DNA of 45,797 bases, the filler included, from Catajapyx aquilonaris (lineage: Eukaryota): assembly GCA_000934665.2 (NCBI GenBank). It is 2 parts of 2 records of this genome, joined end to end, with 100 filler letters (N's around TTAATTAATTAA, not from the genome) between each part and the next. Parts side by side here need not be neighbours in the genome. Positions count along the whole stretch, not along the records: positions 22,930 to 45,797 come from JYFJ02005802.1; 1 more part is not named here. One strand, given 5' to 3'. Below are positions 9,617 through 39,610 of this stretch, piece after piece (within the stretch, counting starts at the first letter, position 1; every line of letters begins with the position of its first letter). The notes beneath the pieces are model-generated. The model saw only the letters and a program-made list of their open reading frames with translations. It searched no databases and was not told the origin of the DNA. The position numbers were made by a program, and so were the translations under genes.

Positions 9617-9806
9617 ATGCCCCAGCTTCCAACATTCACGAACTCAGAGAGGTTCGACATGCTGATGATGTACGCTGATTGTGGGAAGAATGCTGTTCAA
9701 GCTACGTTGGAGTATGCCCACAGATACCATGACTGGAACCATCCTGGTGATAGGTCCATCCGGCGCCTGGTGAAGCAGCTGCGAGAACACGGGTCATTCC
9801 TTCCGG
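9617..9806 (+). mobile_element. Tc1/mariner-type N-terminal HTH (DUF4817-like) fragment
   Basis: FTNSERFDMLMMYADCGKNA..A..EYA.RY....HP...IRRLVKQLREHGSF. Confidence 0.8.
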
Positions 9807-10030
9807 GGGCCCGTGTGGTTCTTTGTGGGAGACGAAATCAACATGCTGACCATTCCAGCATGGACATGTTTGCTCTTTGCCTGCAAACGTCCGCCCTGAC
9901 GGACCCACCACATGAAGTACTGTATGTATCCAATTGGATAAGGACACCCAAGATTACTAAAGTAATATGCAGCAAGTAATAAGTCACCAACCCCAAATGG
10001 TACAGACTGACGTGCACAGTACTTGTGAAA

Positions 10031-11399: not shown

Positions 11400-11693
11400 A
11401 GAAGTCATGCAACTATTCGGTTTTAAGATAGCCATAGCACAGGAGCTATTTGATTCCATTCAGCCTGACGACACTTGACACCGATGAGGAAACTTCACCA
11501 CGACCAAAGAAGAAGAATGTCACACCTTTGCCACCACCTAGCCACCACCTAGCCACCGCAAGAAAGGCAATGAACACATGCCGAAGGTAATTAAATTGAA
11601 AACCTTCGGAAAGTGTCGTTAGGCTGGATGCAAAGAAAGGTGAAGGGTCATGTGCAGTAAATGTAATGCGTTTTTGTGTTTGAATGCTGACAG
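11400..11693 (+). mobile_element. piggyBac transposase C-terminal Cys-rich domain fragment
   Basis: MQLFGFKIAIAQEL...RKKGNEHMP...KCR.AGCKER.RVMCSKCNAFLCLN, with internal stops. Confidence 0.75.
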
Positions 11694-12761
11694 GAAGGAC
11701 ACCTGAAAAACCAGTGCTCATGATACTGGATAATCATGACTCACATCTATCAATTGATGTTATTGACTATTGCAAGTCTCAGGACATAGTCATGCTGTCC
11801 CTCCCGCCACATTGCTCTCATAAATTGCAGCCCCTGGACAGAGGTGTATTTGGACCTCTCAAAAAGTTCGTTAACACATCCTGCGATTCCTGTATGAGAC
11901 GAAACCCAGGGAGAGCAATGAGCATTTACGATATCCCGAGTATTTTGAAGGATGTTTTTCCACTTGCTGTAACACCAAGAAATGTTCAGAGTGGTTTTGC
12001 TGTGTCTGGAATCTGTCCATTCAACCCGCTAATTTTTACTGACAGTGACTTCATGCCGTCATCTGTGACTGATCGACCACCACCTGCAGCACCATCTGAG
12101 AATTCTGGGGAACCAATGCCGTCTTCATCTACGGATGCTCCATCATCGATGACCAATGGGCCGTCTACGCGTAATCTGGATGACATTCAAGATGCTAGTA
12201 GGATGCATATTAGCCCAGATATGGTGCGTCCCCATCCGAAGGCAGGACCGAGAAAGGGGAAAGCACAGAACAGAAGAAAAAGAACTACTGCCATCCTGAC
12301 AGACACACCTGTCAAAGAAGCACTAGCAGTACAACATGCTGCAGCAAAAAAGCGCCGTTTGACTTTTGATCAAGGTAAGCCTAAATCCAAGAAGTATAGG
12401 CCTACAGAAAAGGCCAAGAAGACAGCAAACATCCCAACCAAAAATAGGACTCGGAAAACTTTGAACAGTGATGCTGTCACCAGTTCCGAAGAGGAGGAAG
12501 AATGTTTTTGTTTAGTGTGTGGTGAATCTTTTGCTGCTTCACAGCCACGTGAAAAGTGGGTACAGTGCCTTACGTGCAAGATGTGGTCGCATCTTCTGTG
12601 CACGGAAGGAAAAGCTACTTACATCTGCCAAAATTGTGACTCTGACGATGACCTACGATGAGAGAGTATTGATGATTACATTTATACCACATTTCGCCAG
12701 GATCGTTTTCAGCAAAAAATTCTGAAGTGAAATCTGTAACAACTATCCCCGCTCTCCCCTA
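11694..12761 (+). mobile_element. pogo/Fot-like (DD35D) transposase 3' half with a C-terminal PHD finger and a probable right terminus
   Basis: ILDNHDSH...LPPHCSHKLQPLD with 35 residues between the two Asp; CLVC...WVQCLTCKMWSHLLC...YICQNC; stop at 12661; terminal-like CCCCGCTCTCCCCTA at ~12747-12761. Confidence 0.88.
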
Positions 12762-12983
12762 CCATTATTAATTACTTTCATTCATATTGACAGGAAAAAG
12801 TTATGGTAGGTCTTCAAAGTTTGAAGCTGCAATGACCTTATCTCAGCTTCAATTTTTTATGTATAAACTTATGTTATTGTTCCCCCAAGCCCTTCAAATT
12901 TTATATTCATACATCATCATCATCATAATCATCATGTATTGCGACTAAATTGAGATCTTATCCATGTGTCATGCTTAACACAG

Positions 12984-13275
12984 GTTCATATTCCGCAAGG
13001 TGTGGTGCTGTCACCATGCAAAAAAGAAAAAAATACCTGCAAGCAAACGAAATACTTATTGTGAAGCTACCCTAGATGTAAAGATTAAAAAGTGCAATAG
13101 GGATACAAAGCGAAATGATCCATACCTCAGGAGGGATCCACCTCTTCAAGGAGAGAGAAAAATAAAGAGGCATAACCATCCTCTGGACACTTGCGGCGCC
13201 CTGCAATACTTGCGTGTCACAGATTCAACTAAGTCTCTCTTTCACGAGTACTTCAACAGTGGATTGGGCCCAGCT
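12984..13275 (+). mobile_element. Mutator/MULE-like transposase N-terminal fragment
   Basis: Acceptor cacag at 12983; W.CHH...NT.CEATL...HNHPL...AL..LRV..TK..F..YF..GLGP, a WRKY/GCM1-like C-x-H...C...HNH pattern. Confidence 0.6.
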
Positions 13276-13278
13276 ACC

Positions 13279-13423
13279 ATGAAACGGTACATCATGGAGG
13301 CATTCCACGAATCGATCTTTGCGCCCCACTTCGCAGAAAAGAAAACTTTGGAAAGGATCAGGAGACAGTATTTCTGGCCTAACCAGAAAAAGGACAGAGA
13401 ATTTCTGCAGGTCGTGCCAGCTT
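13279..13423 (+). mobile_element. Gypsy integrase HHCC zinc-binding fragment
   Basis: FHESIFAPHFAEKKTLERIRRQYFWP..KKD, then ENFCRSCQL in a shifted frame. Confidence 0.82.
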
Positions 13424-14048
13424 GTAAGTTTAATGAGATATGCTTGTATTAACCAATTCCCGGGCATTCATTCATGCCTATCGATAGTTGCTTTGGCAAG
13501 ATTGCGCAGTTGCGGAAGAAGAAAAACTATCACTGTACCATCAACATCGGTGAATATGATTCGATAATGCAGTTGCGAAGAAGTTTGTGGTCGTTTATGT
13601 GAAACATCCAGTCACAATGGAAGATGGTTGTCCTGTTATTCCCGGAGGGGCAACCTTGTGGTCAGCGGGATCCCGGAAGAGGCGGAGGGGACATGGGCAA
13701 GGACAGAGGAGTTGCTGAAAGAGATGGTGAGCAAGAGGGTGAGCCTGACTTTGCGGTCAATCTCCCGCGCACACCGAGTGGGGTCGAAGAGGGAGGGGGG
13801 GGACCGCAAGGTAGTGGTCAAATTTGACGCGGGGAATGAGAGGGAGGCCATGCTGAAGGAGAAGGTGAAAATGAAGAGCAGCACCATATACATAAACTAC
13901 TCATTGGCGACCCGGGAGGTGCGCAGGTAGCTCTTCCGGGTGGCACGAGACTGGCGAGCCTCTGGAACCCCCAACACTGTCCGGTGGACAAGCTGGTGGC
14001 CGGGGGGAAGTGGTATGTGTGGGGCGAGGAGAAGCACGAGGCAGTGCT
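13416..14048 (+). repeat. Direct duplicate of 8623-9265 (Sola1 piece plus ORF1 copy C)
   Basis: Colinear high identity across the same chimeric junction GAAGATGGTTGTCCTGTTATTCCCGGAGG. Confidence 0.95.
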
Positions 14049-22829: not shown

Positions 22830-22929
22830 NNNNNNNNNNNNNNNNNNNNNNNNNNNNNNNNNNNNNNNNNNNNTTAATTAATTAANNNNNNNNNNNNNNN
22901 NNNNNNNNNNNNNNNNNNNNNNNNNNNNN
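22830..22929. other. Assembly gap with artificial linker
   Basis: 44 N + TTAATTAATTAA (stop codons in all six frames) + 44 N, exactly 100 bp. Confidence 0.95.
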
Positions 22930-23643
22930 ACCCTCCTTTTCGGGAACTTCCTCCAGATTTTTCTGGCGGCTGGTGTAATAGTCCCGTGACTCTCTGTCTA
23001 TTTTATTTTTCATGCCAATCCTGACAATATAGTGACAAACGCGGTTGTAGGATTCGGATTCTAACAGGAGTCGCTTCTCAGGCTACGTTTTGCAGATTTG
23101 TTCGCCACCACGGACTACCACTGTTATCTAATTAGAATGGCATCGTGTCTTGTTGTGTGGTATCTTATTCAACAAAGTTTACCTCATTTCCCTCTGCCTA
23201 ATGAAAAAGTATTCTCATATCACGCTCGATTGGTTTACCAATCTCGTTTTTGAGGAGAAAAGTTTAAAAGGAATCACAACCTTTCTGTATTTAAAGTACT
23301 GATTGCCAGCAATGAATGAGACCAAAGTGAATTTTAAAACCAAAGATAAACCTGCATGTAGTCGAGAGTCTCTCTTCTGCAAGCATACGTAAATGGAAGG
23401 ATTTCTCTATATTGGAAAAAAACTGCCTACTTATTAGTATTTATAAGTACCAGATCAGTACTGAAGTACCTGTCACTGTTCAGAGTACTACATGTGTGTA
23501 ACATACACGTATGAAATTGCATGAAAATTGGTGAGGAAAAAGCATTTATTTCTGGCCAAGCACAGAGCCAAAACTTGCTCTGCATAGCCTACACTTGAAT
23601 ATACAAGTATTTCAGGGACTTAATGAGCACATACCAATTTCAG

Positions 23644-23925
23644 GGAAACGGTGCCCAAGAGAATATGAGAAATGGAATGCAGCAAGACACGTACAAAACG
23701 TACAAAAGGAAACGCTTCGGGGGGGGTTGTGTCAGATTTGCAAGAGGAAATTTATATATTAACTCCTTGAGTATGTTGAATTTCCACATGATAACCCACG
23801 CAAAAGAGAAGCCATTCATTTGCCTGGTTTGCAACAAAAGGTTCCCCCCTTTTATGATTCACATAGGGATGGTGAAATATCCTGTGATCAGCCCAAGAAT
23901 GCCACTACTTGGTGCCCCATTTTAA
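23644..23925 (+). pseudogene. Truncated inverted copy of the ZnF terminal exon (unit A)
   Basis: tttcag acceptor then GNGAQENMRNGMQQD; finger 1 scrambled; homology ends after KPFICLVCNKRF. Confidence 0.85.
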
Positions 23926-24689
23926 TATCGAATATCAAACTCCTTCATGAAAAAGTCGCAAACTTAATGAACGCTCCTCTTAGGTAGTGTATACAAGAGT
24001 TAAGAATAGCAAATGGTATGAAATTGTAAAATTATAGTCTCTTCGTGTTCACTCAATCCTCATTTCCTACCCTGTTCTTTTCCTTTCATCAGATTACCAT
24101 ATCTTTCGACACATGATACCACAACCAGCCATTTCATGCCCTCTGTACGGGTCAATGACTTTCTCGGCATTCAAGCTGCTCTCCACAAACTTAAAAGGCC
24201 CCAACTATTTTGCCGACAACACCAATAGTCTACAAACAAGGCACCACAATCGTATATGCCAGAGGTAATTAGGTTCATGTTGGGTTACAGAGTTACGAGC
24301 TGAATACCAGTAGATTTTTTATTTTTTTGCACGCCATGAATATTATTATTGCTATCACGTCGTACCGGACTGCTACAGTCTATGCAAGTGAAATTCAATT
24401 TATGAACTGTACACGTTTAGACATCAACCTGGAAAACAAGTAACTGTAAAATGGAAGGTAATGTAGATGGTTAATAATAATACAGTGAGGATCCAGAACA
24501 AAAAATTCGTGTTGAATTCTTTTTAATGTTTTCATGTAATATTTATTTAACTTTATATTATTTCCACACCAAGGATAACTAAACCCGCAGATAAACCGAG
24601 AAAGACTGTACTGTACTCTCATGCCCATTCTGTCATGTTCACACTGATCAGCCTAATTATGCTTATTTTCCGTTTTCTGAGTACTAAAG

Positions 24690-24912
24690 TCCGGTCGGTA
24701 TCCATGCGAGAGTTTTCTCTTGCCAGAGAAGCCAACTGCGCATGACCGGATCGGAGGAACATCGGAAGAAAAGTATAAAATTTTCATCGTTAATCCCCTT
24801 TCTGAGGGGCGAGAGGGGGCCGGAGACGAAAAATATAGTCAGTCTCGACGTACAAGAGTACAAAATTTCTCGCGCAAGAGAAACTCTTGCGCGGATACCG
24901 CCGATACCGGGC
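24690..24912. mobile_element. Harbinger-type MITE, degraded copy
   Basis: Homologous to 32514-32727 and 29680-29890. Confidence 0.7.
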
Positions 24913-25172
24913 TTAAGCTGAGTCTATTCTGCACAGGCTACATAACATGTCCATACAACCAATGGGAGGGCAACAAAACACAGTTCACATCTCTCTGGCT
25001 TCCAGGCTCTTTGGGGGAGATTGCACCCCTCCTGTCTTTGCTTCAACATCTCTGACATCATCTAAAACCACAATCAAGGTCGCTTCCTAAGCTGTTCATA
25101 AAATCTAGCTATTGCAGCTAACAGAGGATGTGGTGATAACTTGACAGTGTGTGAAATGTGGTCTTACACAAC

Positions 25173-25919
25173 TCACACACTTTTTTTGTGATGAGCTGTT
25201 ATGTGTCTTTCCAAACTTACTGTCCGAGAAAACCCTTCCTTGCAAACCAGGCAACGGTATGGCTTTTCAGCTGCATGTATCTTCGAGTGTTTGGTCAGAG
25301 CCGATGAGCTAATTAACTTTTTGTTGCAAACCTGGCAACAAAATGGCTTCTCTCCCTTATGTGTTCTAGTGTGTCTTTTCAAATGAGTTGAGGCACGAAA
25401 CGCTCTTTTGCACACCTGGCAACTGAATGGCTTCTCTCCCGTGTGCATTCTGGTGTGTCTATTCAAACTTCCTGCCCGACTAAATCTTTTGTTGCAAACC
25501 TGGCAACTGAATGGCTGCTCTCCCGTGTGCATTCGGGCGTGCGCATTCAAATTTTCTCCCTGACTAAATCTTTTGTTGCAGATCTGGCAACTGAATGGCT
25601 TCTCTCCCGTGTGCACTCTGGTGTGTCTATTCAAATTTCCTGCCTTACGAAACTTTTTGTTGCAAACCTGGCAACTGAATGGCTTCTCTCCCGTGTGCAT
25701 TCGGGCGTGATTATTCAAACTTCCTGCCAGACTAAATCTTTTGTTGCAAACCTGGCTACTGAATGGCTTCTCTCTTGCGTGGGTTCTCACGTGGAAATTC
25801 AACTTCCTCAAGGAGTTGAATTTCCTCTTGCAAATCTGACACACATTCCCCCCCAATCGTTTCCTTTTGTACATGTCTTGCTCCATTCCAGTCTTCATAT
25901 TCTCTTGAGCACCTTTTCC
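25173..25919 (-). CDS. C2H2 zinc-finger terminal exon, 8 fingers (unit B)
   Basis: Tandem CxxC-x12-HxxxH with TGEKPF linkers; finger 2 has a C-to-S change; acceptor cccatttcag/ at 25920 gives phase-0 GKGAQENM; AATAAA on the - strand at 24542-24547. Confidence 0.9.
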   Translation of the reverse strand, partial: GKGAQENMKTGMEQDMYKRKRLGGNVCQICKRKFNSLRKLNFHVRTHAREKPFSSQVCNKRFSLAGSLNNHARMHTGEKPFSCQVCNKKFRKAGNLNRHTRVHTGEKPFSCQICNKRFSQGENLNAHARMHTGEQPFSCQVCNKRFSRAGSLNRHTRMHTGEKPFSCQVCKRAFRASTHLKRHTRTHKGEKPFCCQVCNKKLISSSALTKHSKIHAAEKPYRCLVCKEGFSRTVSLERHITAHHKKSV

Positions 25920-26045
25920 CTGAAATGGGTAAGTATGTGCTCATTAAATTCATGAAAATAATACTGTATATGCAAGTGTATGCAGAGCAAATTTTGACTC
26001 ACAACCAACTCACTCTTTTTACCCTCCTAAATTTTGAAAATTTTC

Positions 26046-26543
26046 GGATTTTCTAATTAATATTCTGCTTGGCATATAGTGTTGTGCAAACATCACCTCT
26101 GCTGCTAATTTTCACGTTAACATGGTCAATATATAAATAAGCCAAAATGCGACATTCCGAAGTCACAACACGTGCATCCGGTCACGGGTGGCCGCGACTG
26201 ATATCAGTGATATGTAAACAATTGATTAAACTTGATTCATAAGGGCCAGTTGCACCGGCCTCAGTATAACTTAGAACCACGGGGGGGGGGGGGGGGGNGT
26301 ACAAATCACCCGAGCGATTTGTCAACAATGATTGATGGCAATTCTTGTTATACCCGAGGTTCTAAGTTATACTGAGGCCGGTGCAACTGGCCCTAAATTG
26401 CTACATAAAATTGATTTTGAAGCGTGTGAGGTGACATTTTACTCGTTCGCGCCAACTTAGAGCCCGCAATTTGCCGCAATTAGCAGCAGAGGTGATGTTT
26501 GCACAACACTATAGTGTATAGGCCAAGCATAATTAGAAAATCC
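26046..26543. repeat. Inverted-repeat element with ~65-bp arms hosting a nested MITE
   Basis: GGATTTTCTAATT...TATAGTGTTGTGCAAACATCACCTCTGCTGCTAATT and its reverse complement at ~26478-26543. Confidence 0.75.
26243..26393. mobile_element. PIF/Harbinger MITE
   Basis: Perfect ~36-bp TIR GGGCCAGTTGCACCGGCCTCAGTATAACTTAGAACC with TAA TSD. Confidence 0.92.
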
Positions 26544-27154
26544 CCCAAAAATGCAAAGGGACATCGCACAAAATGTATGGGCGAGTGCCATTCCGTTCGA
26601 TTTGCCTGAAAATGTGATATGTTGTAGCCCAGAACGTCCAGATCAATGTTAGATAGGGACATTTTAAGGTAGGCCCTACAGAAAGCGTGCTAATGACCTC
26701 CGAAGGTAATAGGGGGAGTAGTAGACTACAATAATCATGTCTCCAGGAACTCAATGGTTATTGCATTAAATAATCTATTAATCTTTATTACCTATTCATG
26801 TGGTTCAAATTCTACTCCATGAAGGTTGTCACTTGGAGTTTTCTCCAGCTGCATTTCAACATTCATTGGGTCAATGGAGGGAAGGTTTCTCTTACCGCAG
26901 TCTTCTATCTATGGTATTGAGCATCTTCGATGAATAGCGATTAGCATGCTCACTGTACTGTACGTCCTACCTCGAAATGTCCCCATCCAACATTGATCAG
27001 GATGGTCTGGGCTACAACATATCCAATTTTCAGCCAAATCGAACGGAAGGCCATCGCCCATACAATTTGTGCGATGTCTTTTAGGAGGGTAGAAAGAGCG
27101 TGATTCGAGAAGACTTTTTCGTATTGGGCTGCGGGAAATAATGGTGTCGACATG

Positions 27155-28468
27155 ATCTAATACATATTTCTCGACGTATATCTGTCTGTCTGTCTGTCCG
27201 CTATGCAAATCCGTACGGAGGCCTCGACATACGCCCGAGGGGATTGATTAGGGGTAGTTTTTTTTACCGGTAATGACATAAGCACATTGGAATTGACCTC
27301 CGAGGTCATCCTTGGCCACAGGAGGCGAAAAGAACTTTAGATGTTGGCCCCCTGTTGTTCTAATAATGATGTTTAGTTGCCTTGGAAACCATATTCCTTC
27401 CCTCCCTCCCTCCCTCCCTCACGTTTTGTTCATAATATTCAAAGAGTTCCATATCTTGCTATCCTGGTATCTTATTCCATCTTTATCCCCCTAGACACGG
27501 TGGCACGGTCCAAGAAGAAAAAAAAAGAAAAAAAAGAAGAAGAAAAAAAGAAAGTTTCTTGGTCCCTCATCCTTAGCTGAACTCTGCGTGTATCCAATGC
27601 GCTTCTGCCAGTGCTACTCTTTATGTTTTTAGGCCCATCTTAAAGTTGGTGGGGTGTTGAGAATGTGGAGGTCCAAACGCTAGAAAGTGAAAAAACAAAC
27701 AAATGAAAAAAAGAATGAAAACTGCATGACACATACCTACGTAGGCCACATTATGCCACACCTTATACCTTTATACCACACCTTAAATACGTTAAACCAC
27801 ATCCCAAAACGACTTTTGAATATAGTTACACTGAGAATGTGGAGGTCCAAGATTTACAAAGAGGGAAAAAGCAAATAAAGGCAAAGCGATTGACACAGAA
27901 CGTAACACAGTTCGGAACAGGAGAATTCCGACAAAAAGCACATGACACAGTATACGTAGAGGAAAAGGTATGGCACTGGCAGGAAAAGTACGCCAAGAAA
28001 ATCCCGACAGGCTGCCTGAACAAACAACCCAAAACCGCCATTCTTACATACAGCGCATTTGTATACCACGAGCTCGAACCCTGGGCCTGCCCCGAGGCCG
28101 TAGCTGGACCGTGCCACCGTGTCTAGGGGGATAAAGATGGAATAAGATACCAGGATAGCAAGATATGGAACTCTTTGAATATTATGAACAAAACGTGAGG
28201 GAGGGAGGGAGGAAGGGAGGGAGGGAAGGAATATGGTTTCCAAGGCAACTAAACATCATTATTAGAACAACAGGGGGCCAACATCTAAAGTTCTTTTCGC
28301 CTCCTGTGGCCAAGGATGACCTCGGAGGTCAATTCCAATGTGCTTATGTCATTACCGGTAAAAAACTACCCCTAATCAATCCCCTCGGGCGTATGTCGAG
28401 GCCTCCGTACGGATTTGCATAGCGGACAGACAGACAGACAGATATACGTCGAGAAATATGTATTAGAT
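27155..28468. repeat. Near-perfect ~360-bp inverted repeat with a ~590-bp spacer
   Basis: 27155-27512 versus 28105-28468; differences mainly in homopolymer and CCCT tracts; arms contain (CTGT)n. Confidence 0.93.
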
Positions 28469-28669
28469 GTAGTAATTGTACAGCGTACAACGTGCGTATA
28501 ATAGTTATTTTCATGCAATTGATACGTCCACGTATCAAATTCCATGAAAATTGGTCAGGAGAAAGGATTTATTTCTGGACAAGCACAGAGTCAAAACTTG
28601 CTCTGCATATACTTGAATATACAAGTATTTCATGAACATAATGAGCACGCACTTTCTTACCCATTTCAG

Positions 28670-28945
28670 GGAAAAGGTGCCCAAGAGAATATGAGAAATG
28701 GAATGCAGCAAGTCACGTACAAAAGGAAACGCTGGGGGGGGGGGNGGGGGGATGTGTGTCAAATTTGCAAGAGGAAATTTAACACCTCGAGTAAGTTGAA
28801 TTTCCACATGATAACCCACGCAAGAGAGAAGCCATTCATTTGCCTGGTTTGCAACAAAAGGTTCCTTCATTTTATGATTCATATAGGAATGGTGAAATGT
28901 CCTGTTATCAGCCCAAGAATGCCTCTACTTGGTGTCTCATTTTAA
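28670..28945 (+). pseudogene. Truncated inverted copy of the ZnF terminal exon (unit C)
   Basis: cccatttcag acceptor, GKGAQENMRNGMQQ, one intact finger, same breakpoint and same tail as unit A. Confidence 0.85.
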
Positions 28946-29679
28946 TATCGAATATTAAACTCCTCCATGAAAAAGTCGCGAACTTTATGAACGCTCCTCG
29001 CAGGTAGTGTACAAGAGTGAAGAATAGCAAATGGTATGAAATTGTAAAATTAAAGTCTCTTCGTGTTCACTCAATCCCCATTCGTTTCCTACCCTGTTCT
29101 TTTCCTTTCACCTGATTACCATATCTTTCGACACATACCTAATACCACATCCTGCCACATTTCATGCCCTCTGTGTGGGTCCATGACTTTCTGCACATTC
29201 AAGCTGTTCTCCACAAACTTAAAAGGCCCCAACTATTTTGCTGACAACACCAATAGTTCGCAAACAAGCCACCACAATTAAATGTCAGTAGTAAATTAGG
29301 TTCCTGTTGGGCTAGAGAGTTACGAGACGAATACCATTATAATGTCTTTTATTTTTGTACATCATGAATTATTGCTATTAATATCGTACTCATACCTATG
29401 TCCGACAAGTTCAATTTATGAACCGCACACGTTTAGACATATCCTGGAAAACAACGAACAGTAAAATAGAAGGTATAACAATACAGTGAGTATCCAGAAC
29501 AAGAAATGCGCGTTGAATTCTTTTTAATGTTTCAATAAGATTTATTTAACTTTATATTTTCACACCAAGGATAACTAAACCCACATATAAACCGAGGCCG
29601 ACTGCACTGTACTCTCATGCCCATTCTGTCATGTTCACACGGATCAGCATACGCTTATCTTCCGTTTTCTGAGTCCATG

Positions 29680-29890
29680 CGGTATCCATACGAGTTTTCT
29701 CTTGTCAGAGCGAATGCGCATGACAGGATCAAGGGTACAGAGGAAAAGTAGTAAATATTTTCAACATTAATCCCTCTTCTGAACGGCGAGAGGGGGCCTG
29801 AGGCGAAACACGTCCGTCTCGACGTGAACAGTACAAGGTTTCTCGATTAAGAGGACTCTGACAAGAGAAACTCTTGCGTGGATACCGCCG
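29680..29890. mobile_element. Harbinger-type MITE, degraded copy at the position homologous to 24690
   Basis: Shared by both duplicated cassettes, so it predates the duplication. Confidence 0.7.
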
Positions 29891-30157
29891 ATACAGGGAT
29901 TCAGTTGAGTCTATTCTGCACTGGCTACGTAACATGTCCATACAACCAATGGGAGGGCAGCAAAACACAGTTCACATCTGTCTGGCCTTCAGGCTGTTCG
30001 GGGTCGATTGCACTCCTACCTATCTCTGCTTCCATATCTCTGACATCTAAATCCACCATCAAGATCGCTTCCTAAGCTGTTCATAAAATCTATCTATTGC
30101 AGCTAACAGAGGATGTGGTGATAACTTGACAGTGTGAGAAATGTGGTCTTACACAAC

Positions 30158-31660
30158 TCACACACTTTTTTTGTGATGCGCTCTTCTGTGTCTTTCCAAA
30201 CTTACTCTCCCAGAAAACCCTTCCTTGCAAACCAGGCAACGGTATGGCTTTTCAGCTGCATGTATCTTCGAGTGTTTGGTCAGAGCCGTTGTCGTAATAA
30301 ACTTTTTCTTGCAAACCTGGCAACTAAATGGCTTCTCTCCCGTGTGAATTCTGGCGTGTTCATTCAAATGTCCTGCTTGACTAAACTTTTTGTTGCAAAC
30401 CTGGCAACTAAAAGGCTTCTTTCCCGTGTGAATTTTGGCGTGTACATTCAAATGTCCTGCCCGGCTGAACCTTTTGTTGCAAACCTGGCAACCAAATGGT
30501 TTCTCTCCCGTGTGCATTCTGGCGTGTTCATTCAAATGTCCTGCCTGGTTAAACTTTTTCTTGCAAACCAGGCAACTGTATGGTTTCTCTCCGGTGTGCA
30601 TTCTGGCGTGTTTATTCAAATGTCCTGCCTGGTTAAACTTTTTGTTACAAACCAGACAACTGTATGGTTTCTCTCCGGTGTGGGTCCTCAGGTGAGTTCT
30701 CAATGCAGTTGAAGTTCTAAACTCCTTTTTGCAAACCTGGCAACTAAATGGCTTCTCTCCCGTATGAATTCTGGAGTGTCCTTTCAAATGTTCTGACTGA
30801 CTAAACCTTTTGTTGCAAACCTGGCAACTGTATGGCTTCTCTCCCGTATGTGTTCTGGTATGTATTTTCAATTGTCCTGAATGTCTATACTTTTTGTTGC
30901 AAAACAGGCAACTGAATGGTTTCTCTGCTGTGTGGGTCCTCTGGTGACTTCTCAAGTCAGATGAGGTTCTACACTTTTTGTTGCAAACCTGGCAACTGAA
31001 TGGCTTCTCTCCTGTGTGGGTGCTCAGGTGAGTTCTCAATGCAGTTGAAGTTCTAAACTCTCTTTTGCATACCTGGCAACTAAATGGCTTCTCTCCCGTA
31101 TGAATTCTGGAGTGTGCTTTCAAATGTGCTGACTGACTAAACTTTTTGTTGCAAACCTGGCAACTGAATGGCTTCTCTCCTGTGTGGGTCCTCAGGTGAG
31201 TTCTCAATTCAAATGAGGTTCTAAACGCTCTTTTGCAAACCTGGCAACTAAACGGCTTCTCTCCCGTATGAATTCTGGAGTGTGCTTTCAAATGTTCTGA
31301 CTGACTAAACCTTTTGTTGCAAACCTGGCAACTGAATGGCTTCTCTCCTGTGTGGGTCCTCAGGTGAGTTCTCAATACAGATGAAGTTTTAAACTTCCTT
31401 TTGCAAACCTGGCAACTGAATGGCTTCTCTCCCTTATGTATTCTGGTGTGTATTTGCAAAAGTCCTGACCGACTAAACCTTTTGTTGCAAACCAGGCAAA
31501 TGAATGGCTTCTCTCTTGCGTGGGTTCTCATGTGGAAATTCAACTTACTCAAGAACTTAAAATTCCTCTTGCAAATCTGACAGACATTCCTCCCCAAGCG
31601 TTTCCGTTCGTACATGTCTTGCTGCATTCCATTCTTCATATTCTCTTGGGCACCTTTTCC
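30158..31660 (-). CDS. C2H2 zinc-finger terminal exon, 17 fingers (unit D)
   Basis: 493-aa open frame of tandem fingers; acceptor cccatttcag/ at 31661, phase 0; AATAAA on the - strand at 29541-29546. Confidence 0.92.
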   Translation of the reverse strand, partial: GKGAQENMKNGMQQDMYERKRLGRNVCQICKRNFKFLSKLNFHMRTHAREKPFICLVCNKRFSRSGLLQIHTRIHKGEKPFSCQVCKRKFKTSSVLRTHLRTHTGEKPFSCQVCNKRFSQSEHLKAHSRIHTGEKPFSCQVCKRAFRTSFELRTHLRTHTGEKPFSCQVCNKKFSQSAHLKAHSRIHTGEKPFSCQVCKREFRTSTALRTHLSTHTGEKPFSCQVCNKKCRTSSDLRSHQRTHTAEKPFSCLFCNKKYRHSGQLKIHTRTHTGEKPYSCQVCNKRFSQSEHLKGHSRIHTGEKPFSCQVCKKEFRTSTALRTHLRTHTGEKPYSCLVCNKKFNQAGHLNKHARMHTGEKPYSCLVCKKKFNQAGHLNEHARMHTGEKPFGCQVCNKRFSRAGHLNVHAKIHTGKKPFSCQVCNKKFSQAGHLNEHARIHTGEKPFSCQVCKKKFITTTALTKHSKIHAAEKPYRCLVCKEGFSGRVSLERHRRAHHKKSV

Positions 31661-31970
31661 CTGAAATGGGTAAGTATGTGCTCATTAAATTTATGAAATA
31701 CCGTTCTGTATATGCAAGTGTATGCAGAGCAAGCTTTGACTCTGTGTGCTTGCCCATAAATAAACCCCTTCTCTTCATCAATTTGAATGCAATTTGAGAC
31801 TTGTTATGTTATACGCGATTATACGTATGTAGTACTGTACAGTACTGATAAATACAGATAAGTGTGCAAGTTTTTATCCAATTCAGAGAAACCCTGCCAT
31901 TTACGCATGTTTGCAGAAGAGAGATTTTTGACTATAATTATGTAGGTTTCCAGGACACCAGTCTGTGTGC

Positions 31971-32400
31971 TAGACCTTGGCGGATAGAGTGAACCTGGAA
32001 AACCGGAAGTGGCCGGTCACCCCTAGGTTGACCATGAAATCCATTTAGGGATCCGCAGAATCAGAATCAGAAAACCGTTTGTCGCCATCTCATGCGGTTT
32101 AAGTCCCGATACCTATCCAAGGACGGACGGATACATAGCTGTTCTATAATCCTTTTTTGATGAGAAAAGTCTAGTAGTCTCATAGAACGGCTCTGTGTCC
32201 GTCCGTCCGTCCGTCCGTGGACAAGGATCATGGATTAAACCGCAAGAGTTAGATGACAAATGGTTTCCTGATTCGGATTCAGCGGACCCTAAATGGGTTT
32301 CATGGTCAACTTACGGTGACCGGCTACTTCCGGTTTTCCAGATTCACTCAAACAGTTATCAAGATCAAGATGCACGGCAGTGCATCCGCGGCCAAGTCTA
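31971..32400. mobile_element. Palindromic repeat element with (GTCC)n, DINE/Helentron-like sequence
   Basis: ~180-bp inverted arms containing GATTCGGATTCAGCGG and CACTTCCGGTTTTCC; relatives at 36057-36665 and 39400-39610. Confidence 0.7.
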
Positions 32401-32513
32401 AGCCACTTCCACTGCCACTGACCCGGACTAGCCCCCAAGAAATATTCTTGACTAGCACCGTCTCTCCTTTACTCTTACGTCTCTCGCTGCCGTGCATCCT
32501 TTACTAGAGCTAA

Positions 32514-32727
32514 AAGCCGGTACCGACGTAAGAGTTTTCTCTCATAAGAGGAGCCAACTGCGCATGCCCGGATACGAGGAAAGAGGGAAAGTTGAAAATG
32601 CTCAACTTTAATCCCCTTTTAGAGGGACAAGAGGGGCCCTGAGGCGACAAAGAGTCCGTCTCGACGTACAAGATTTCTCGCGTAAGAGGACTCTTATGAG
32701 AGAAAACTCTAACGTGGATACCGGCTT
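32514..32727. mobile_element. PIF/Harbinger MITE
   Basis: AAGCCGGTA...TACCGGCTT with subterminal AGAGTTTTCTCTCATAAGAG inverted repeat; TAA TSD. Confidence 0.85.
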
Positions 32728-33011
32728 TAACTCGTTCTCTACAGAAATTTTCTAGTTCGGCACAGGAAAACGCTGCAAGTCTGAAATGTTAATACGACAA
32801 TAGGTCACACCCAGGAACCCTACAAATAAATTTTCGTGAAATTTGGACCACTAGGTCCATAGAAATTCAATATGGTTAATATTAAAGTGTCATAATTTCA
32901 AAAAAAAAAAAAAATCATGTCGGGACAATTAATGGGTGGAATTTTCGTCATACTACTACAGTAACTCTAGCTACTGCTAACTTAGCAGTATACCTTTGCA
33001 CTATACTTGTA

Positions 33012-33745
33012 CAGGGTGTCCCTAAATGATTGTCAACTTTTGAAAGCTGCTTAATTTCTATTAGATGCGGTGTGCAATGACAAGACATACATAGAACGAA
33101 AGACCACATTTGGGAGTTTTTATTGCACACAGAAAAGTTGGTTCCGCACTTTGACGCGAGGCACACAGGGCCACTCCACAAAATGGTGTCTCTCGAACAG
33201 AAAACGTTCAGTGTCCTGCAGTTTGCAAAGCTTGGTTCGGTATTTACTGTTCAGCAGTCCTTCCGGCAACAGTACGGACGACGTTACGCCCCTCCCTACA
33301 ATAATTCAACGGTGGTTCCAGAAGTTTCAGAAGACGGGATGCCTTTGCAAGGGCAAGGATCGGCGGATCGGACATGCCGGTCAGCAAGATCTGGTTTTTC
33401 TCCAGTGGCCGCCAAGGTCTCCCGACCTCACCCCATGTGACTTTTTCCTCTGGGGGTATATGTAAAGGACCAGGTCTTCGTACCACGTCTACCTACCAGC
33501 CTGTGTGAGTTGAAACGCAGGATTGTTGCTGCTTTGGAATCAATCACACCAGACATGCTGGCCTGTGTAGAGAATTGGACTATCATGTCGTGTGACGAAA
33601 GGTGCTCATATTGAGCACTTGGTAGTGTGTGCAATAAAAACTCCCAAATGTGCTCTTTCGTTCTATGTCTGTCTTGTCATTGTACACAGCAAATAATAAA
33701 AATTAAACAACTTTCAAATGTTGACAATCATTTAGGGACACCCTG
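33012..33745 (+). mobile_element. Internally deleted Tc1/mariner element (DUF4817 HTH; probably rosa/DD41D type)
   Basis: ~130-bp TIR CAGGGTGTCCCTAAATGATTGTCAAC, TA TSD; MVSLEQKTFSVLQFAK... joined to WPPRSPDLTPCDFFLWGY; nested in an older inverted repeat (~32932-33792). Confidence 0.9.
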
Positions 33746-33834
33746 TACTGCTAAGTAAGAAGTAACTAGTAGAACGACGAAAATTCCACCCATCGTTTTC
33801 AGAAAGGAGACTTCATGAGCAGTAAATTGCTTAA

Positions 33835-35029
33835 AGGGACACTCCACTCAAAAAACAAGTTGACCTCTAAAAATCAGGCAAAAAATCCTGATTCCGGTGA
33901 TACCACGGGTTTTTTTCTACGGCGAACGATAATCCGATAAATAAATGGCAAAGTAGGCCGGCGGCAAACCCCCTGCCCCTCCACCCCCGGCGACACCTAC
34001 CTCGGGCACCTGGCGGCTGCTTCAGGAAGTAGGGATCGTAGCCGCGCGGGTTTGAAATGCAGTTCGGTGGGATATTTCTGGCTGCTGCCAATACTGTCAC
34101 GGAGGTGTTACTTTCCAGACCTCGCCTTTGCTTGGGTACCGGTGGGCTACATCTGTTGCTTACGCATCAGATCCCCATGACTAATAAAGGCCCGGAGGGA
34201 CACATGTTTATGCTTAGCACTAGGGCAGGAGGTGGGTAGGTCCTACGCTTGTCATTTCTGGCTTTCATTCCGGCATATGGTGGAGGGCTCGGAAGAAAGT
34301 AGCATCATGGACGAGAAAGGCACGGAAAGGTAAGGACAAAAGGCCGTCATTCTGGGCAGTGTTTTGCTCCTCACCCTCGCACGGCTCGAATTGATAAGGG
34401 AGGAGCCCATGTGGACTGGGTCGGAGGCAGCCTGGAACTTCGGACTGTTCGGAGCTATCTCCCTCGGCAGCCTCCATGCTAGGTCGCGAACTATCCTTTT
34501 CCATTACCGTACATTCGGGCCCGACAGAATCGCTGGACTGCGCCATCTTGGAATAACCGCTACGCGATTGAGAATAGCAGCTAATATGTGTTAGGGCCAG
34601 AAGATTGCTAATGGCTCTGTTTCAATGACTAATTCCAATTTTACGGGGATCTGATGCGGCAGCAACAGAATGATGTAGCCCACCGGTACACAATTAGGAG
34701 CCAAGCAAAGGCGAGGTCTGGAGAGTAACACCTCCGTGACAGTATTGGCAGCAGCCAGAAATATCCCACCGAACGGCATTTTTTCAAACCCGTGCGGCTA
34801 CGATCCCTACTTCCTCAGGCAGCCGCCAGGTGGCGAGTACCCAACTTCCCCCGGGGGCCGCTGGTCAGGAGGGCGGCTCCACGCTCGATCAGAAGTCGAA
34901 TTTATTCCGACTTTCGTCTCTTCCCCTGTCATTACCGTTCGCCTCAGAGATAAACGGATCGCATTCTCGGAATCAGGATTCCTTGCCTGATTTTTAGAGG
35001 CCAACTTGTATTTTGAGAGGAGTGTCCCT
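33835..35029 (-). mobile_element. Kolobok-type non-autonomous element with long TIRs
   Basis: TTAA TSD, AGGGACACTCC...GGAGTGTCCCT termini, ~350-bp imperfect arms; internal ORF 34546-34265 with a PYQFEP motif. Confidence 0.75.
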
Positions 35030-35176
35030 TTAAGTAAGACCATTGGTGCAGCTTAAATCAATTGGTGAAGGTCTTACGTGCGACTGCCTTGTTTCAGTAC
35101 TTTCTTTCTGACACGAAGGTCTTACTACCCTTTTTTTCACTGAAGGGAATGGTTTTGCTCTTATACATACATATGA

Positions 35177-36055
35177 TGTAAGTGTATGCAGAGCCTGAGC
35201 AAGTTTTGATTCGGTGTGCTTGGCCAGAAATAAATCCTTTCTCCTCACCAATTTTCATGCAATTTGATACGTGTATATTATACGTATGTAGTACTGTACT
35301 ATGTACAGTACCCTGCATTAATGGCTATGCACATACTACATCGCCACCTGTCCGAAAACGAGCGGAATTAGGCGTCGGTGGACTGCGTCCAAAATACTTG
35401 GGACAGCTCAAGATATCGCGGTAGATTCAAACGCTAGCTACAAAGATGGATCACAGCGGATCACAGATAATATCTGTGATCCGCTGTGATCCATCTTTGT
35501 ATCTTTGTACAGTCCAAATTCAGTTTTTGAAATTGCCACTCAAAACACGGTGGGATGAATTATAACGCCACTGCGATTCCTATCAATGTATTGAATTGAG
35601 GTTGTGAAGCAGTTATTACACGGACCACGCGAATGCCTGTTAATCCACCGGTATATCTTGTACTGTCTAGAGCGGTCTCATGAGCAGTCTTGAGATGAAA
35701 GTATTTTGGACACAGCCCACGGACGCCTAGTTCCGCTCAATCCCTCCATGTGGCGATGTCTGTGCATAGCCATTAATGCAGGGTACTGTATGGCACTGAT
35801 AAGTATGCAGCTTTATCCAATACAAAGAAACCCTGCTATTTAAGTGTGTTTGCAGAAGAGAGATTCTACAGATTGACTATACGCAAGTTTCACTTTGGAT
35901 TTGAAAGTTCATTATGGTCTCGTATACATTGCTGGCAATCATTTTTTATACAGAAAAGTTGTGATTCCTTTTAAACTTTCCTCATCAAAAACAAGATTGG
36001 TAAACCACGCGAGCGTGATTCGAGAAGACTTTCGCATTGGGCAGCGGGAAATGAG
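35177..36055 (-). repeat. Third - strand copy of the intron sequence preceding the ZnF exon, lacking acceptor and exon (unit E)
   Basis: Homologous to 31715-31935 and, inverted, to 23180-23600; interrupted by the MITE at 35306-35788. Confidence 0.75.
35306..35788. mobile_element. Tc1/mariner-superfamily MITE, copy 2 of the 375-774 family
   Basis: Same TIR and TA TSD; the paralogous site near 31840 lacks it. Confidence 0.92.
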
Positions 36056-36056
36056 G

Positions 36057-36665
36057 CTGCCCAGGCTGTCGACACGATGCGATTCAAACTGGACAAAACC
36101 CCGACATAGAATGTTGTCAGTCTCATTTCCGGTATCCAAGAAATCCAAGGACACCCGCATGTGTGCTTGACCTTGGCGGATAGAGTGAACCTGGAAAACC
36201 GGAAGTGGCCGGTTACCGTAAGTTGACCATGAAACCCATTTAGGGTGTGCTGAATCCGAATCAGAAAACAGTTTGTCGCTTTCTTTTGCGGCTTAAGCCC
36301 TGATGCCTGTCCACGGACGGACGGACACAGAGCCGTTCTATGAGGTTTTTAGACTTTCTCTCATCAAAAACTGCTTATAGAACAACTCTTTGCCCGTCCG
36401 TCAATGGACAGCATGCTGTCAGGGCTTAAACCGCATGAGATAGCGACAAATGGTTTTCTGATTCGGATTCAGCGGCCCCTGGATGGGTTTCGTGCTCAAC
36501 TTACGGTGACCAGCCACTTCCGGTTTTCCTGGTTCACTCTGTCCGACAATGTCAAGTCCGCAGGCGGGTGTCCTTGGATTCTTTGGCGACTGGAAATGAT
36601 ACTGACAACATTCTATGTCGTTGTTTTGTCCAGTTAGAATCGCATCGTGTCGACAGCCTCGGCAG
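36057..36665. mobile_element. Palindromic repeat element with ~290-bp arms (family of 31971-32400)
   Basis: CTGCCCAGGCTGTCGACACGATGCGATT...AATCGCATCGTGTCGACAGCCTCGGCAG. Confidence 0.8.
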
Positions 36666-37080
36666 TCCGTCCGTCCGTGGACAGGTAGCAGGACCTAAAC
36701 TTGCCTAAACCGCAAGAGATAGTGACAAACGCTATTTTAGGATCCGGATAGTCACAAGAGGCGCTTCTCTGGCTGCGTGTTGCAGATTTGTTCGCCACCA
36801 CGGACTGCCATTGTTATCTAATTAGAATGGCACAGTGTATTGTTGTGTGGTATCGTATTCAACGAAGTAAGTCTCATTTACCTCTGCCTAATGAAAAAAA
36901 AGCTACTGGAATCACGCTAGCGTGATTTTCCTATTTGTTTTATTTTGTTTGGAGTTACAGAATAAGCAACCCATGCATTAGTCAAGGAAAGGGCAATAGC
37001 AAACCCACATTCGTAACAATCATAATCATTTCCATATTTATGTAATACTACTGATTTATAACATTCCAGTCAGGACGTAC

Positions 37081-37217
37081 CTGTACATCCAAAGTGTCCG
37101 TTTCCTCTTCCGCCTCTTTGTCTCCTCCATCATCCAAAGCCAAACCTGCCGGACCGTCGTCGAGATCTTCACCATCACAGCTCAGCTCCTCCTGAGGCTG
37201 ACTAGATTGTAGTCGCA
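37081..37217 (-). CDS. Candidate internal coding exon (acidic linker) upstream of the ZnF exons
   Basis: Acceptor ttttcctcag/, donor CAG/GTACGT, 137 nt, open as RLQSSQPQEELSCDGEDLDDGPAGLALDDGGDKEAEEETDTLDVQ, ends in phase 0. Confidence 0.65.
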
Positions 37218-38272: not shown

Positions 38273-39089
38273 TATAGTAGCAAGAGCCAGTAACGCGGGA
38301 AAATGTTTTTGCCCTACGTTGACCGAGGTCAGGACAATCATATGGGGCTGTCGCGAAAAGTGCTCCCATACCGTGGCATGATTTTTTTCCGAAGTCGCAC
38401 TTACCCCGATTCGGCACTTGCCCCGACTCACCTTAATAATAATTCTGGGTAGTGCTTTCACCAGCTGTCTAGTGTGGTCAGCCTAAGCCAATTTTGAAAT
38501 GTACGAGCCCGGAGCCTCAGTACAGTGCAGGGGTCAGATAAAACCAAAAATGGGCCGGCCCAACTCCTAAAGCACAAAATTTATGAGCCGCATTCCGAAA
38601 TAACCTCAAAAGGAATCAGTCGAAAGGTACGTACTGTACAGGCATCATAAAGTCAACTGCATGGGTTTGTGAATATGGCAACCTTGCCACCCCATCCTCC
38701 CTGGTCGCTGTTGTCCTCTTCCTCTTTTCCTCCAGGCAAAAATACCCTCACCACCCGACACCCCGACTCCACACACTACACAAGAAGTTGGCTTCACCAA
38801 CTGGTAGATAGCATAACTGGCACCAGAAATGCAGTCACATTTTGACAAAATTATTATTTACCACGCAATTGTCTCCGTATCAACATTCCACAACTTCATA
38901 GTGAGTTACCAAGAAAGGCACACAGAAATCCCTACTCCTTGTGGGTTGCTACTAAAGAGATGTGGCTATGTGAATGGGTGATTAGAGCAGAGTGTTTGTC
39001 TTACCCTCATCTGGTTGTGGTGCATGCTCCCTTCCATCCTCTTCCTGTTCTGGTTCCACCTCCATGGGCCTGGCCATCCCCTCCAGGAT

Positions 39090-39276
39090 CCCTGCCACCT
39101 TCCCCATCCTCTTCGTCTTCACAAGCGGGACCAGCTTCCTCTGGGTCTTCCCTGCCACCTTCCCCATCCTCTTCGTCTTCACAAGCTGAACTAGCTTCCT
39201 CTGGGTCTTCCCTGCCACCTTCCCCATCCTCTTCGTCTTCACAAGCTGGACCAGCTTCCTCTGGGTCTTCCCTGCC
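39090..39276. repeat. 60-bp tandem repeat, about 3 copies, in exon-like GC-rich sequence
   Basis: Unit CCCTGCCACCTTCCCCATCCTCTTCGTCTTCACAAGC..ACCAGCTTCCTCTGGGTCTT. Confidence 0.95.
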
Positions 39277-39399: not shown

Positions 39400-39610
39400 A
39401 ATCTTACGGTTTGACCATGGGAACCTGGAAAACATGAAGTGACCGGTCACAGTAAGTTGACAATGGAACCTATTTAGCGTCTCCTGAATCCGAATCCGAA
39501 ACCGTTTAGTGCTATCTCTTGCGGTTTATGCCCTGATACCTGGCACGGACGGACTGACGGACGGACATGGCTGTTCACCCATTCTATGAGACTTTTTGAG
39601 GAGAAGTCGA
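39400..39610. mobile_element. Single arm of the (GTCC)n palindromic family
   Basis: GAACCTGGAAAACATGAAGTGACCGGTCAC...GAATCCGAATC...GACGGACGGAC. Confidence 0.7.

What the first reader, a model, noticed from the sequence alone, without database searches (positions are those of the whole stretch)
25173..37217. One upstream exon, two ZnF cassettes: candidate alternative terminal zinc-finger exons
Seen: both ZnF ORFs have the same acceptor (cccatttcag/GGA AAA GGT) 21 nt before the ORF-track ATG, in phase 0, and each has its own downstream AATAAA. I found no exon between them, while 37081-37217 is a clean exon ending in a phase-0 donor. Known: arthropod lola, broad, fru and mod(mdg4) swap C-terminal DNA-binding exons onto a common N-terminus. 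Inference: one gene makes 17-finger and 8-finger isoforms, diversified by tandem duplication of the last exon.
Basis: partly seen in the sequence, partly recalled or inferred. Interest (0 to 1): 0.75.

Follow-up and report, generated by a model that had tools for sequence, protein, structure and literature searches.

The report
Duplicated zinc-finger terminal exon cassettes
The last exon of an animal zinc-finger gene has been copied several times within 14 kb, leaving two intact versions (17 and 8 fingers) behind a single candidate upstream exon, so one gene may make two DNA-binding forms, but no RNA data could be obtained to show it.

Summary
Two minus-strand C2H2 ORFs share an identical acceptor, and an ATG lies 21 nt inside each. 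Each has a homologous AATAAA, 611 or 625 nt past its stop. A 137-nt AG...GT interval at 37081-37217 has a phase-0 donor.

The locus is richer than described. There are at least five copies of the cassette's 5' end:
- two intact cassettes: 17 fingers, and 7 canonical fingers plus one lacking a cysteine;
- two truncated inverted heads on the plus strand;
- one remnant with no finger exon.

The two intact ORFs have no frameshifts and keep 31 of 32 and 68 of 68 zinc ligands. Their 3' flanks differ by 12.6% with 22 indels. Both therefore look selectively maintained.

No second copy of the acidic exon exists in the window, so sharing it is the most economical way to express the 8-finger copy.

Nothing shows splicing. 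No RNA run was listed, no genome is held, and no protein relatives of the leader or the acidic exon were found. The exon itself is only weakly better than chance (about 0.1 expected in the relevant stretch).

Verdict: plausible but untested small lola-like arrangement. The scan reported a similar case elsewhere in this genome (e1-7682556). Interest is modest.

The parts
37081..37217 (-). Candidate internal coding exon: 137 nt, 45 codons plus 2 nt, 16 of 45 residues D/E, no ATG in frame, acceptor phase 1, donor phase 0
   Evidence: Sequence; frames. Only strict splice-scan candidate in the window. GC 0.53 against 0.35-0.39 in the flanks. Unique in the window. No Pfam match.
39005..39227 (-). 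Weak candidate first coding exon: ATG, 74 codons, donor AGG|gtaaga in phase 1, which fits the acceptor at 37217. It contains a 60-nt x 3.1 tandem repeat.
   Evidence: Joined models are open. Shuffles give 3.3 comparable candidates per window in any phase. No Pfam match.
30158..31660 (-). ZnF-17 cassette, coding part: 24-residue leader plus 17 canonical C2H2 fingers, stop at 30158-30160
   Evidence: 68 of 68 zinc ligands intact.
31661..31934 (-). Intron tail upstream of the ZnF-17 acceptor (piece Z and beyond), shared with the other cassette copies
29541..29546 (-). AATAAA 611 nt after the ZnF-17 stop
25173..25919 (-). ZnF-8 cassette, coding part: leader, 7 canonical fingers and one unit lacking the first Cys, stop at 25173-25175
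   Evidence: 31 of 32 ligands intact.
25920..26000 (-). Intron tail kept upstream of the ZnF-8 acceptor. Homology to ZnF-17 ends 81 nt upstream.
24542..24547 (-). AATAAA 625 nt after the ZnF-8 stop, homologous to that of ZnF-17
28529..28863 (+). Inverted truncated head c: intron tail, acceptor (first exon base 28670), leader, finger 1 and half of finger 2. It then breaks off and is convergent with ZnF-17.
23359..23843 (+). Inverted truncated head a: first exon base 23644, finger 1 destroyed by indels, same breakpoint as c, convergent with ZnF-8
35140..35299 (-). Remnant Z5: fifth copy of the intron tail, ending in a degenerate cccttcag, with no finger sequence after it
   Evidence: tblastn finds no fingers there.
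27155..28468 (.). Young element with about 360-nt terminal inverted repeats (97-100% alike), inserted between the upstream sides of ZnF-8 and head c
26013..27098 (.). Insert bounded by 19-nt inverted repeats, with nested inverted repeats, directly upstream of the ZnF-8 intron tail
31952..37080 (.). Putative 5.4-kb intron, mostly repeats: palindromic element copies at 31952-32349 and 36057-36665, a mariner-like remnant at 33009-33748, an inverted-repeat element at 33827-35037, and a repeat at 35302-35790

Best explanation
A terminal-exon cassette of a C2H2 zinc-finger gene was copied at least five times within 14 kb by local segmental and inverted duplication. The cassette holds the intron tail, acceptor, 24-residue leader, finger array and a 3' region with AATAAA.

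Two copies stay intact and selectively maintained: ZnF-17 (proximal) and ZnF-8 (distal). Two are truncated inverted heads, and one is a remnant without a finger exon. Only one candidate upstream coding exon exists, the acidic 37081-37217, perhaps preceded by 39227-39005.

Most likely that exon splices to the ZnF-17 acceptor. By skipping ZnF-17 and its poly(A) signal, it would also splice to the ZnF-8 acceptor. This would give two proteins with a common front and different finger arrays.

Shown: the duplication, the intact ORFs, the identical acceptors, the fitting phases, the AATAAA signals and the absence of a second upstream exon.

Inferred: that 37081-37217 is an exon, that either junction is used, and that both proteins are made.
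For: - Block homology: 28529-30759 against 23506-25774, 82% over 2317 columns, plus further head copies.
- The 3' flanks of the two cassettes differ at 12.6% of sites, with 22 indel events in 1.1 kb, 18 of them not multiples of three.
- Neither ORF has a frameshift. 6.0 and 12.2 frame-breaking indels per lineage are expected at the flank rate, giving P(0) of 0.002 and 5e-6.
- Zinc ligands are 31 of 32 and 68 of 68 intact, against 5.1 and 10.8 losses expected.
- Differences between orthologous fingers lean towards the recognition helix: 7 of 21 sites against 8 of 63, Fisher p 0.048.
- The acidic exon peptide hits only itself in the window at E below 0.1.
- The crude scan finds no phase-0 first-exon or internal-exon candidate between the two cassettes.
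- Joining the upstream exon to either cassette keeps the frame open: 545 and 293 codons, or 620 and 368 with the candidate first exon.
- The exon is the only strict splice-scan candidate in the window. It is a GC peak between AT-rich flanks.
- An earlier scan note reports a promoterless downstream zinc-finger copy spliced to an upstream gene elsewhere in this genome (e1-7682556). This was not checked here.
Against: - No transcript evidence of any kind was obtained.
- The exon is weakly supported. Shuffles give 0.62 equal candidates per window. It has no relatives: one search found 4 hits at E up to 0.001. The three fetched are unrelated bacterial repeat proteins, and the fourth was not fetched.
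- The acidic exon has no ATG in frame, and the candidate first exon is a young tandem repeat that is open in all three frames.
- Each cassette has an ATG 21 nt inside with A at -3, so it could be translated on its own.
- The shared acceptor is also kept in the decayed heads, so it carries no weight.
- dN/dS over the 108 orthologous codons is 0.71, with only 6.5 synonymous changes, so it is not clearly purifying.
- Gene conversion among fingers could help keep the frames open.
- The remnant Z5, 1.9 kb below the exon, suggests the exon's original finger exon was lost.
Confidence: 0.4

Rival explanations
1. Two separate transcription units. Each finger exon has its own start site or first exon, either unrecognised or transposon-derived. 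Alternatively each is translated from the ATG 21 nt into the exon, as a fingers-only protein. In this reading 37081-37217 is not part of these genes, or is at most a 5' untranslated exon.
For: - ATG with A at -3 in all four heads.
- In ZnF-17 an ATAAAT-like string lies about 31 nt before the CAG. It is not kept in the other copies.
- The exon is only weakly above chance.
- The region upstream of ZnF-8 is filled with inserted elements that could supply a promoter.
- Read in frame 0, the exon holds an ATG whose 39-codon frame ends in a TGA overlapping the finger-exon ATG. That is what a leader exon with an upstream ORF would look like.
Against: - The crude scan found no candidate first exon between the cassettes.
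- A partial copy without a promoter would have had to gain one before decaying, yet the ZnF-8 ORF is intact at 12.6% flank divergence.
- The acceptor has a good pyrimidine tract and fits the upstream donor in phase.
Confidence: 0.3
2. Only ZnF-17 is expressed, with or without the acidic exon. ZnF-8 is a silent partial duplicate that has not yet visibly decayed, or that gene conversion from relatives keeps open.
For: - ZnF-8 has lost one zinc ligand, and a conserved Phe is Leu in its seventh unit.
- It retains only 81 nt of the upstream intron.
- It sits behind the ZnF-17 AATAAA.
- The last two fingers and the first 130 nt of 3' flank are 93-94% alike, against 78-90% further on. This suggests conversion.
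Against: - No frameshift or stop in 747 nt, although 6.0 frame-breaking indels are expected at the flank rate.
- 31 of 32 ligands are kept against 5.1 expected losses.
- Its middle fingers are only 83-88% like any ZnF-17 finger, so they are old and yet intact.
Confidence: 0.12
3. mod(mdg4)-style trans-splicing. The cassettes, including the plus-strand heads, are transcribed from their own promoters and are joined in trans to the upstream exon.
For: - Intact acceptors on both strands.
- In mod(mdg4), variable 3' exons lie on both strands, have independent promoters and are joined by trans-splicing (PMC13490949, abstract and passages read).
Against: - The plus-strand heads are truncated after about 1.5 fingers, and one is scrambled by indels.
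- No BTB exon and no conserved intron motif could be tested.
- The two intact cassettes are on the same strand as the exon, so cis-splicing suffices.
Confidence: 0.03

Closest known systems
Drosophila longitudinals lacking (lola)
   Same: Common 5' exons would join to one of several alternative 3' terminal exons. Each of these encodes C2H2 fingers, has its own acceptor and poly(A) signal, and arose by local duplication. lola's mixed cis/trans splicing is stated in PMC13490949 (passage read). The exon layout is recalled.
   Different: - Only two intact cassettes, against about twenty in lola.
- Arrays of 8 and 17 fingers, not finger pairs.
- No BTB domain found within the 8.6 kb upstream.
- No transcripts seen.
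- The cassettes carry inverted truncated head copies.
Drosophila mod(mdg4)
   Same: Constant exons plus many variable 3' exons, some on the opposite strand (PMC13490949). Here, acceptor-bearing heads also lie on the opposite strand.
   Different: mod(mdg4) uses FLYWCH-type ends (recalled) and obligatory trans-splicing from independent promoters. Here the opposite-strand copies are truncated fragments, and nothing shows trans-splicing.
Read-through or conjoined transcripts in vertebrate KRAB zinc-finger clusters (for example ZNF559-ZNF177)
   Same: Upstream exons of one cluster gene are spliced to the finger exon of a downstream neighbour or partial copy, in a young, transposon-rich, tandemly duplicated zinc-finger cluster.
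   Different: No KRAB or other known effector domain here. The nature of ZNF559-ZNF177 is recalled: only shows that the name occurs in two papers (search listing).
Earlier scan note e1-7682556 (same genome, other locus)
   Same: One complete zinc-finger gene is reported as spliced onto the finger end of a promoterless partial copy downstream.
   Different: It is a different sequence family. Look-ups with this locus's exon and head found no look-alike among the scanned windows. That note's evidence was not visible to me.

Membership tests
C2H2 zinc-finger proteins (Pfam zf-C2H2 PF00096, zf-H2C2_2 PF13465) | Tandem C-x2-C-x12-H-x3-H units with TGEKP-type linkers | tested here: met
   PF13465 E 1.4e-50 and 1.3e-114; PF00096 E 9.8e-36 and 2.3e-77; 17 canonical units, and 7 canonical plus one degenerate.
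lola-type loci (BTB genes with alternative 3' terminal DNA-binding exons) | Two or more same-strand terminal exons, each with its own acceptor, DNA-binding domain, stop and poly(A) signal | tested here: met
   This is at the sequence level only.
lola-type loci (BTB genes with alternative 3' terminal DNA-binding exons) | Common 5' exons that encode a BTB/POZ domain | tested here: not met
   42 minus-strand ORFs between 37.3 and 45.4 kb were scanned against Pfam: 40 and 2. That is not all of the 52 ORFs of 45 aa or more that one search lists there. None matched a BTB, ZAD, KRAB, SCAN or THAP family. The gene could start beyond the window end.
lola-type loci (BTB genes with alternative 3' terminal DNA-binding exons) | Transcripts that join one common donor to each alternative acceptor | not testable with these tools
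No transcript-derived protein was found.
mod(mdg4)-type trans-spliced loci | Variable exons with independent promoters that are joined in trans, with functional opposite-strand exons | tested here: inconclusive
   Opposite-strand heads exist, but they are truncated or scrambled. Promoters and trans-splicing cannot be tested.
Lineage-specific zinc-finger clusters with a shared N-terminal module (KRAB, ZAD, FiNZ, or the acidic-front-end clusters noted earlier in this genome) | Each paralogue has its own copy of a family-wide N-terminal exon | tested here: not met
   One acidic exon serves five cassette copies. The exon has no look-alike among the scanned windows of this genome, and no informative match was seen in 1.84 billion representatives (three of four hits fetched, all unrelated).

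The most novel reading that the evidence does not exclude
The inverted head copies that sit downstream of each intact cassette may act as RNA selectors. In a minus-strand read-through transcript, the antisense of head c can pair over about 300 bp with the ZnF-17 acceptor and leader. This would mask that acceptor and loop out the exon. Alternatively it can pair over about 240 bp with the ZnF-8 head. Competing long-range pairing would then decide which finger array is joined to the common exon, or the double-stranded RNA would feed small-RNA silencing of the family.
Probability: 0.05. Interest if true: 0.65.

Novelty: new member of a known kind. Interest (0 to 1): 0.3.

Why it matters
If both junctions are used, the locus would show how partial gene duplication creates alternative DNA-binding ends on a scaffold that is not BTB. 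One intact proximal and one intact distal cassette, plus three decayed copies, would record that history.

That would add a young example to the lola-type class. It would also fit a similar case already noted elsewhere in this genome.

If the junctions are not used, this is an ordinary, transposon-riddled cluster of zinc-finger gene fragments. Either way, no long-standing question hinges on it.

Tried and rejected
- RNA evidence: no RNA holder was listed for window:25100-32000. The tool's answer says a holder needs a twentieth of the words, so a single-gene query would have been the better choice.
- Own genome: none is held.
- Protein relatives:
  - The ZnF-17 array gives only generic zinc-finger proteins. 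6102 of the 8000 scored candidates had E up to 1e-30. Of the 120 listed, the best identity is 58% and none is near-identical.
  - Leader plus finger 1: one word-sharing candidate among proteins of 275-875 aa, with no score. No candidate among proteins of 30-274 aa.
  - Acidic exon against 1.84 billion representatives: 4 hits at E up to 0.001. The three fetched are bacterial-type repeat proteins without fingers. The fourth, P0121, was not fetched.
- Earlier-findings look-ups by place, relatives, sequence and words gave nothing for this locus.
- Pfam on 12 ORFs of the intervening repeats and the candidate first exon found nothing above cut-off.
- The cassette as a mobile element with terminal inverted repeats was considered, because each intact copy is bracketed by inverted heads. 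It was rejected because the outer ends of the homology differ between copies: 81, 142, about 273 and about 460 nt upstream of the acceptor.
- The 3' flank piece at 32529-32723 was considered a trace of a third cassette. It is only 74% alike and partly palindromic, so it is more likely a dispersed repeat.
- The pieces X (36719-36941) and Y (35795-36056) were considered ancestral intron. Their ends are inverted repeats of each other and recur at 27096-27139, so they are probably transposon parts.
- Two nearer first-exon candidates for ZnF-17 (33586-33497, inside a mariner-like remnant, and 32497-32423) pass only a relaxed donor threshold. They were not pursued.
Full report
**What is there.**
- The window is a transposon-rich animal sequence. 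It holds reverse transcriptase, DDE transposase, integrase and mariner-like pieces. No whole genome is held for it.
- On the minus strand lie two long C2H2 zinc-finger ORFs: 30158-31681 (507 codons stop to stop) and 25173-25940 (255 codons).
- Both are preceded by the same string, cttacccatttcag|GGAAAAGGTG. The first exon bases are 31660 and 25919, and an ATG lies 21 nt inside.
- TAA and TGA stand in frame just upstream of the AG. The reading frame therefore has to enter by splicing or start at that ATG.
- The long ORF has 17 canonical fingers. The short one has 7 canonical fingers and one unit that lacks its first cysteine.
- AATAAA lies 611 and 625 nt after the stops, at homologous positions.
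- At 37081-37217 a 137-nt interval is flanked by ttttcctcag| and |gtacgt. It is open only in the frame that gives a phase-0 donor. It encodes 45 residues, 16 of them D or E, and has no ATG in that frame.

A self-comparison and an alignment show five copies of the cassette's 5' end, not two.
- Besides the two intact copies (b = ZnF-8, d = ZnF-17), there are two truncated heads on the plus strand: c (28529-28863, first exon base 28670) and a (23359-23843, first exon base 23644).
- Each head has the intron tail, the same acceptor, the leader, finger 1 and half of finger 2. Both break off at the same point. Head a is scrambled by indels.
- Each head lies convergent to, and downstream of, an intact cassette.
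- The block 'inverted head, spacer, finger exon' was copied as a unit: 28529-30759 against 23506-25774, 82% over 2317 columns.
- A fifth copy of the intron tail (Z5, 35140-35299) ends in a degenerate cccttcag and is followed by unrelated sequence and a repeat. tblastn with the ZnF-17 protein finds strong finger matches (E 1e-18 or lower) only at a, b, c and d. The remaining rows are the antisense frame of b (E 0.004) and three chance-level hits (E 1.7 or higher).
- The four heads are 88-91% alike in all pairs, so the copying events were close in time.
- Homology between b and d stops 81 nt upstream of the acceptor. Beyond it lie an insert bounded by inverted repeats (26013-27098) and a young element with 97-100% identical 360-nt arms (27155-28468). 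Then comes the upstream side of head c.

**Are both cassettes alive?**
- The 3' flanks of b and d differ at 12.6% of sites. They carry 22 indel events in 1.1 kb, 18 of them not multiples of three.
- At that rate, 6.0 frame-breaking indels per lineage are expected in b and 12.2 in d. None is seen (P about 0.002 and 5e-6).
- Zinc ligands are intact at 31 of 32 and 68 of 68 positions, against 5.1 and 10.8 losses expected.
- The middle fingers of b are only 83-88% like any finger of d, so they are old and yet intact.
- Over the 108 codons that are clearly orthologous, dN/dS is 0.71. It is 0.36 for the leader plus finger 1, and 1.9 for the last two fingers, with only 6.5 synonymous changes in all.
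- Amino-acid differences lean towards the recognition helix: 7 of 21 sites against 8 of 63, p 0.048.
- I read this as constraint on the fold and frame of both copies, with divergence of DNA-contact residues. The numbers are small, and gene conversion could contribute.

**Is 37081-37217 an exon, and is it shared?**
- A crude scan used a recalled generic splice consensus. It finds this interval as the only strict candidate on either strand of the window.
- Block shuffles give 0.62 phase-0 candidates per window. 40 of 100 shuffles have at least one.
- That is about 0.1 expected in the 14 kb of minus strand upstream of ZnF-17. This is suggestive, not decisive.
- The interval is a GC peak (0.53) between flanks of 0.35-0.39. 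It lies in unique sequence.
- The peptide matches nothing else in the window at E below 0.1. No Pfam family matches it, and no scanned window of this genome resembles it.
- No informative match was seen in 1.84 billion representative proteins. There were 4 hits. The three fetched are unrelated bacterial repeat proteins, and one was not fetched.
- A possible first coding exon lies at 39227-39005. It has an ATG and the donor AGG|gtaaga, and its phase fits the acceptor at 37217.
- With it, models ending in ZnF-17 and ZnF-8 would be open for 620 and 368 codons.
- That candidate consists largely of a 96%-identical 60-nt tandem repeat that is open in all three frames. Shuffles give 3.3 comparable candidates per window.
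- 42 upstream minus-strand ORFs were scanned against Pfam. That is not all of the 52 ORFs of 45 aa or more that one search lists there. None matched BTB, ZAD, KRAB, SCAN or THAP.

**Weighing the readings.**
- ZnF-8 appears maintained by selection.
- The window holds no second copy of the acidic exon.
- The crude scan found no candidate first exon between the cassettes.
- A freshly made partial copy can be expressed at once only by read-through from the gene upstream of it.
- This favours the shared-exon reading, to which I give 0.4.
- It is not shown.
- No annotated or transcript-derived protein resembles the leader or closely resembles the array.
- The main rival (0.3) is that each cassette has its own start site and is translated from the ATG 21 nt inside. 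Read in frame 0, the 137-nt interval holds an ATG whose 39-codon frame ends in a TGA overlapping that ATG, as a leader exon with an upstream ORF would.
- A silent ZnF-8 (0.12) and trans-splicing (0.03) remain possible.

**Comparison with what is known.**
- The arrangement would work like lola, with common 5' exons and alternative terminal finger exons.
- mod(mdg4) has variable exons on both strands with independent promoters, joined by trans-splicing. lola mixes cis and trans splicing (PMC13490949, abstract and passages read).
- Membership in that family fails on the BTB feature within the window, and it cannot be tested on transcripts.
- Read-through transcripts in vertebrate KRAB zinc-finger clusters are a second analogue. 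This is recalled; one search gave only a listing.
Other notes describe zinc-finger clusters there that share an acidic first exon (e1-7506650). I could not check these notes, and this locus's exon does not resemble anything indexed.
- That the animal is an arthropod comes only from those notes.

**Most novel reading not excluded.** In a read-through minus-strand RNA, the antisense of head c can pair over about 300 bp with the ZnF-17 acceptor and leader, or over about 240 bp with the ZnF-8 head. Duplex energies are -460 and -389 kcal/mol, against -111 for shuffles. Such pairing could steer acceptor choice or feed small-RNA silencing. I give it 0.05.

**Verdict.** The one-gene, two-isoform part is plausible and untested. 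This would be a new member of a known kind, of modest interest.

Noticed in passing
window 37081-37217 with 31660 or 25919 (minus strand): Read in frame 0, the candidate exon has an ATG at exon nt 43. After the proposed splice, its 39-codon frame ends in a TGA that overlaps the finger-exon ATG (ATGA). This is the layout of a termination-reinitiation upstream ORF.
   Followed up: partly
window 28529-28863 against 31476-31803, and 23565-23843 against 25735-26000: Each intact cassette is bracketed by an inverted copy of its own head, 1.9-2.6 kb away. A read-through RNA could therefore form 230-300 bp of double strand over the acceptor.
   Followed up: partly
window 39089-39276: A 60-nt unit is repeated 3.1 times at 96% identity and is open in all three minus-strand frames. 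One frame is strongly acidic and one strongly basic. It lies inside the weak first-exon candidate.
   Followed up: partly
window 27155-28468: A young 1.3-kb element with about 360-nt terminal inverted repeats, 97-100% alike. It has no recognisable protein domain.
   Followed up: partly
window 31952-32349, 36057-36665, 39421-39593: A family of palindromic, MITE-like repeats. The arms at 36057-36303 and 36419-36665 are 87% complementary. The copies are scattered through the putative introns.
   Followed up: no
window 2049-2594, 9302-9979, 11684-12661, 12979-13452: Transposon protein pieces on the plus strand: reverse transcriptase (E 1.6e-21), a DUF4817 helix-turn-helix, a DDE_1 transposase with a PHD-like end, and an integrase zinc-binding domain.
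   Followed up: no
window 22830-22929, 26298, 28745, 42555: Two 44-N gaps, and single N's inside long C or G runs. One is within head c and one is just upstream of ZnF-8. Local assembly is therefore uncertain there.
   Followed up: no
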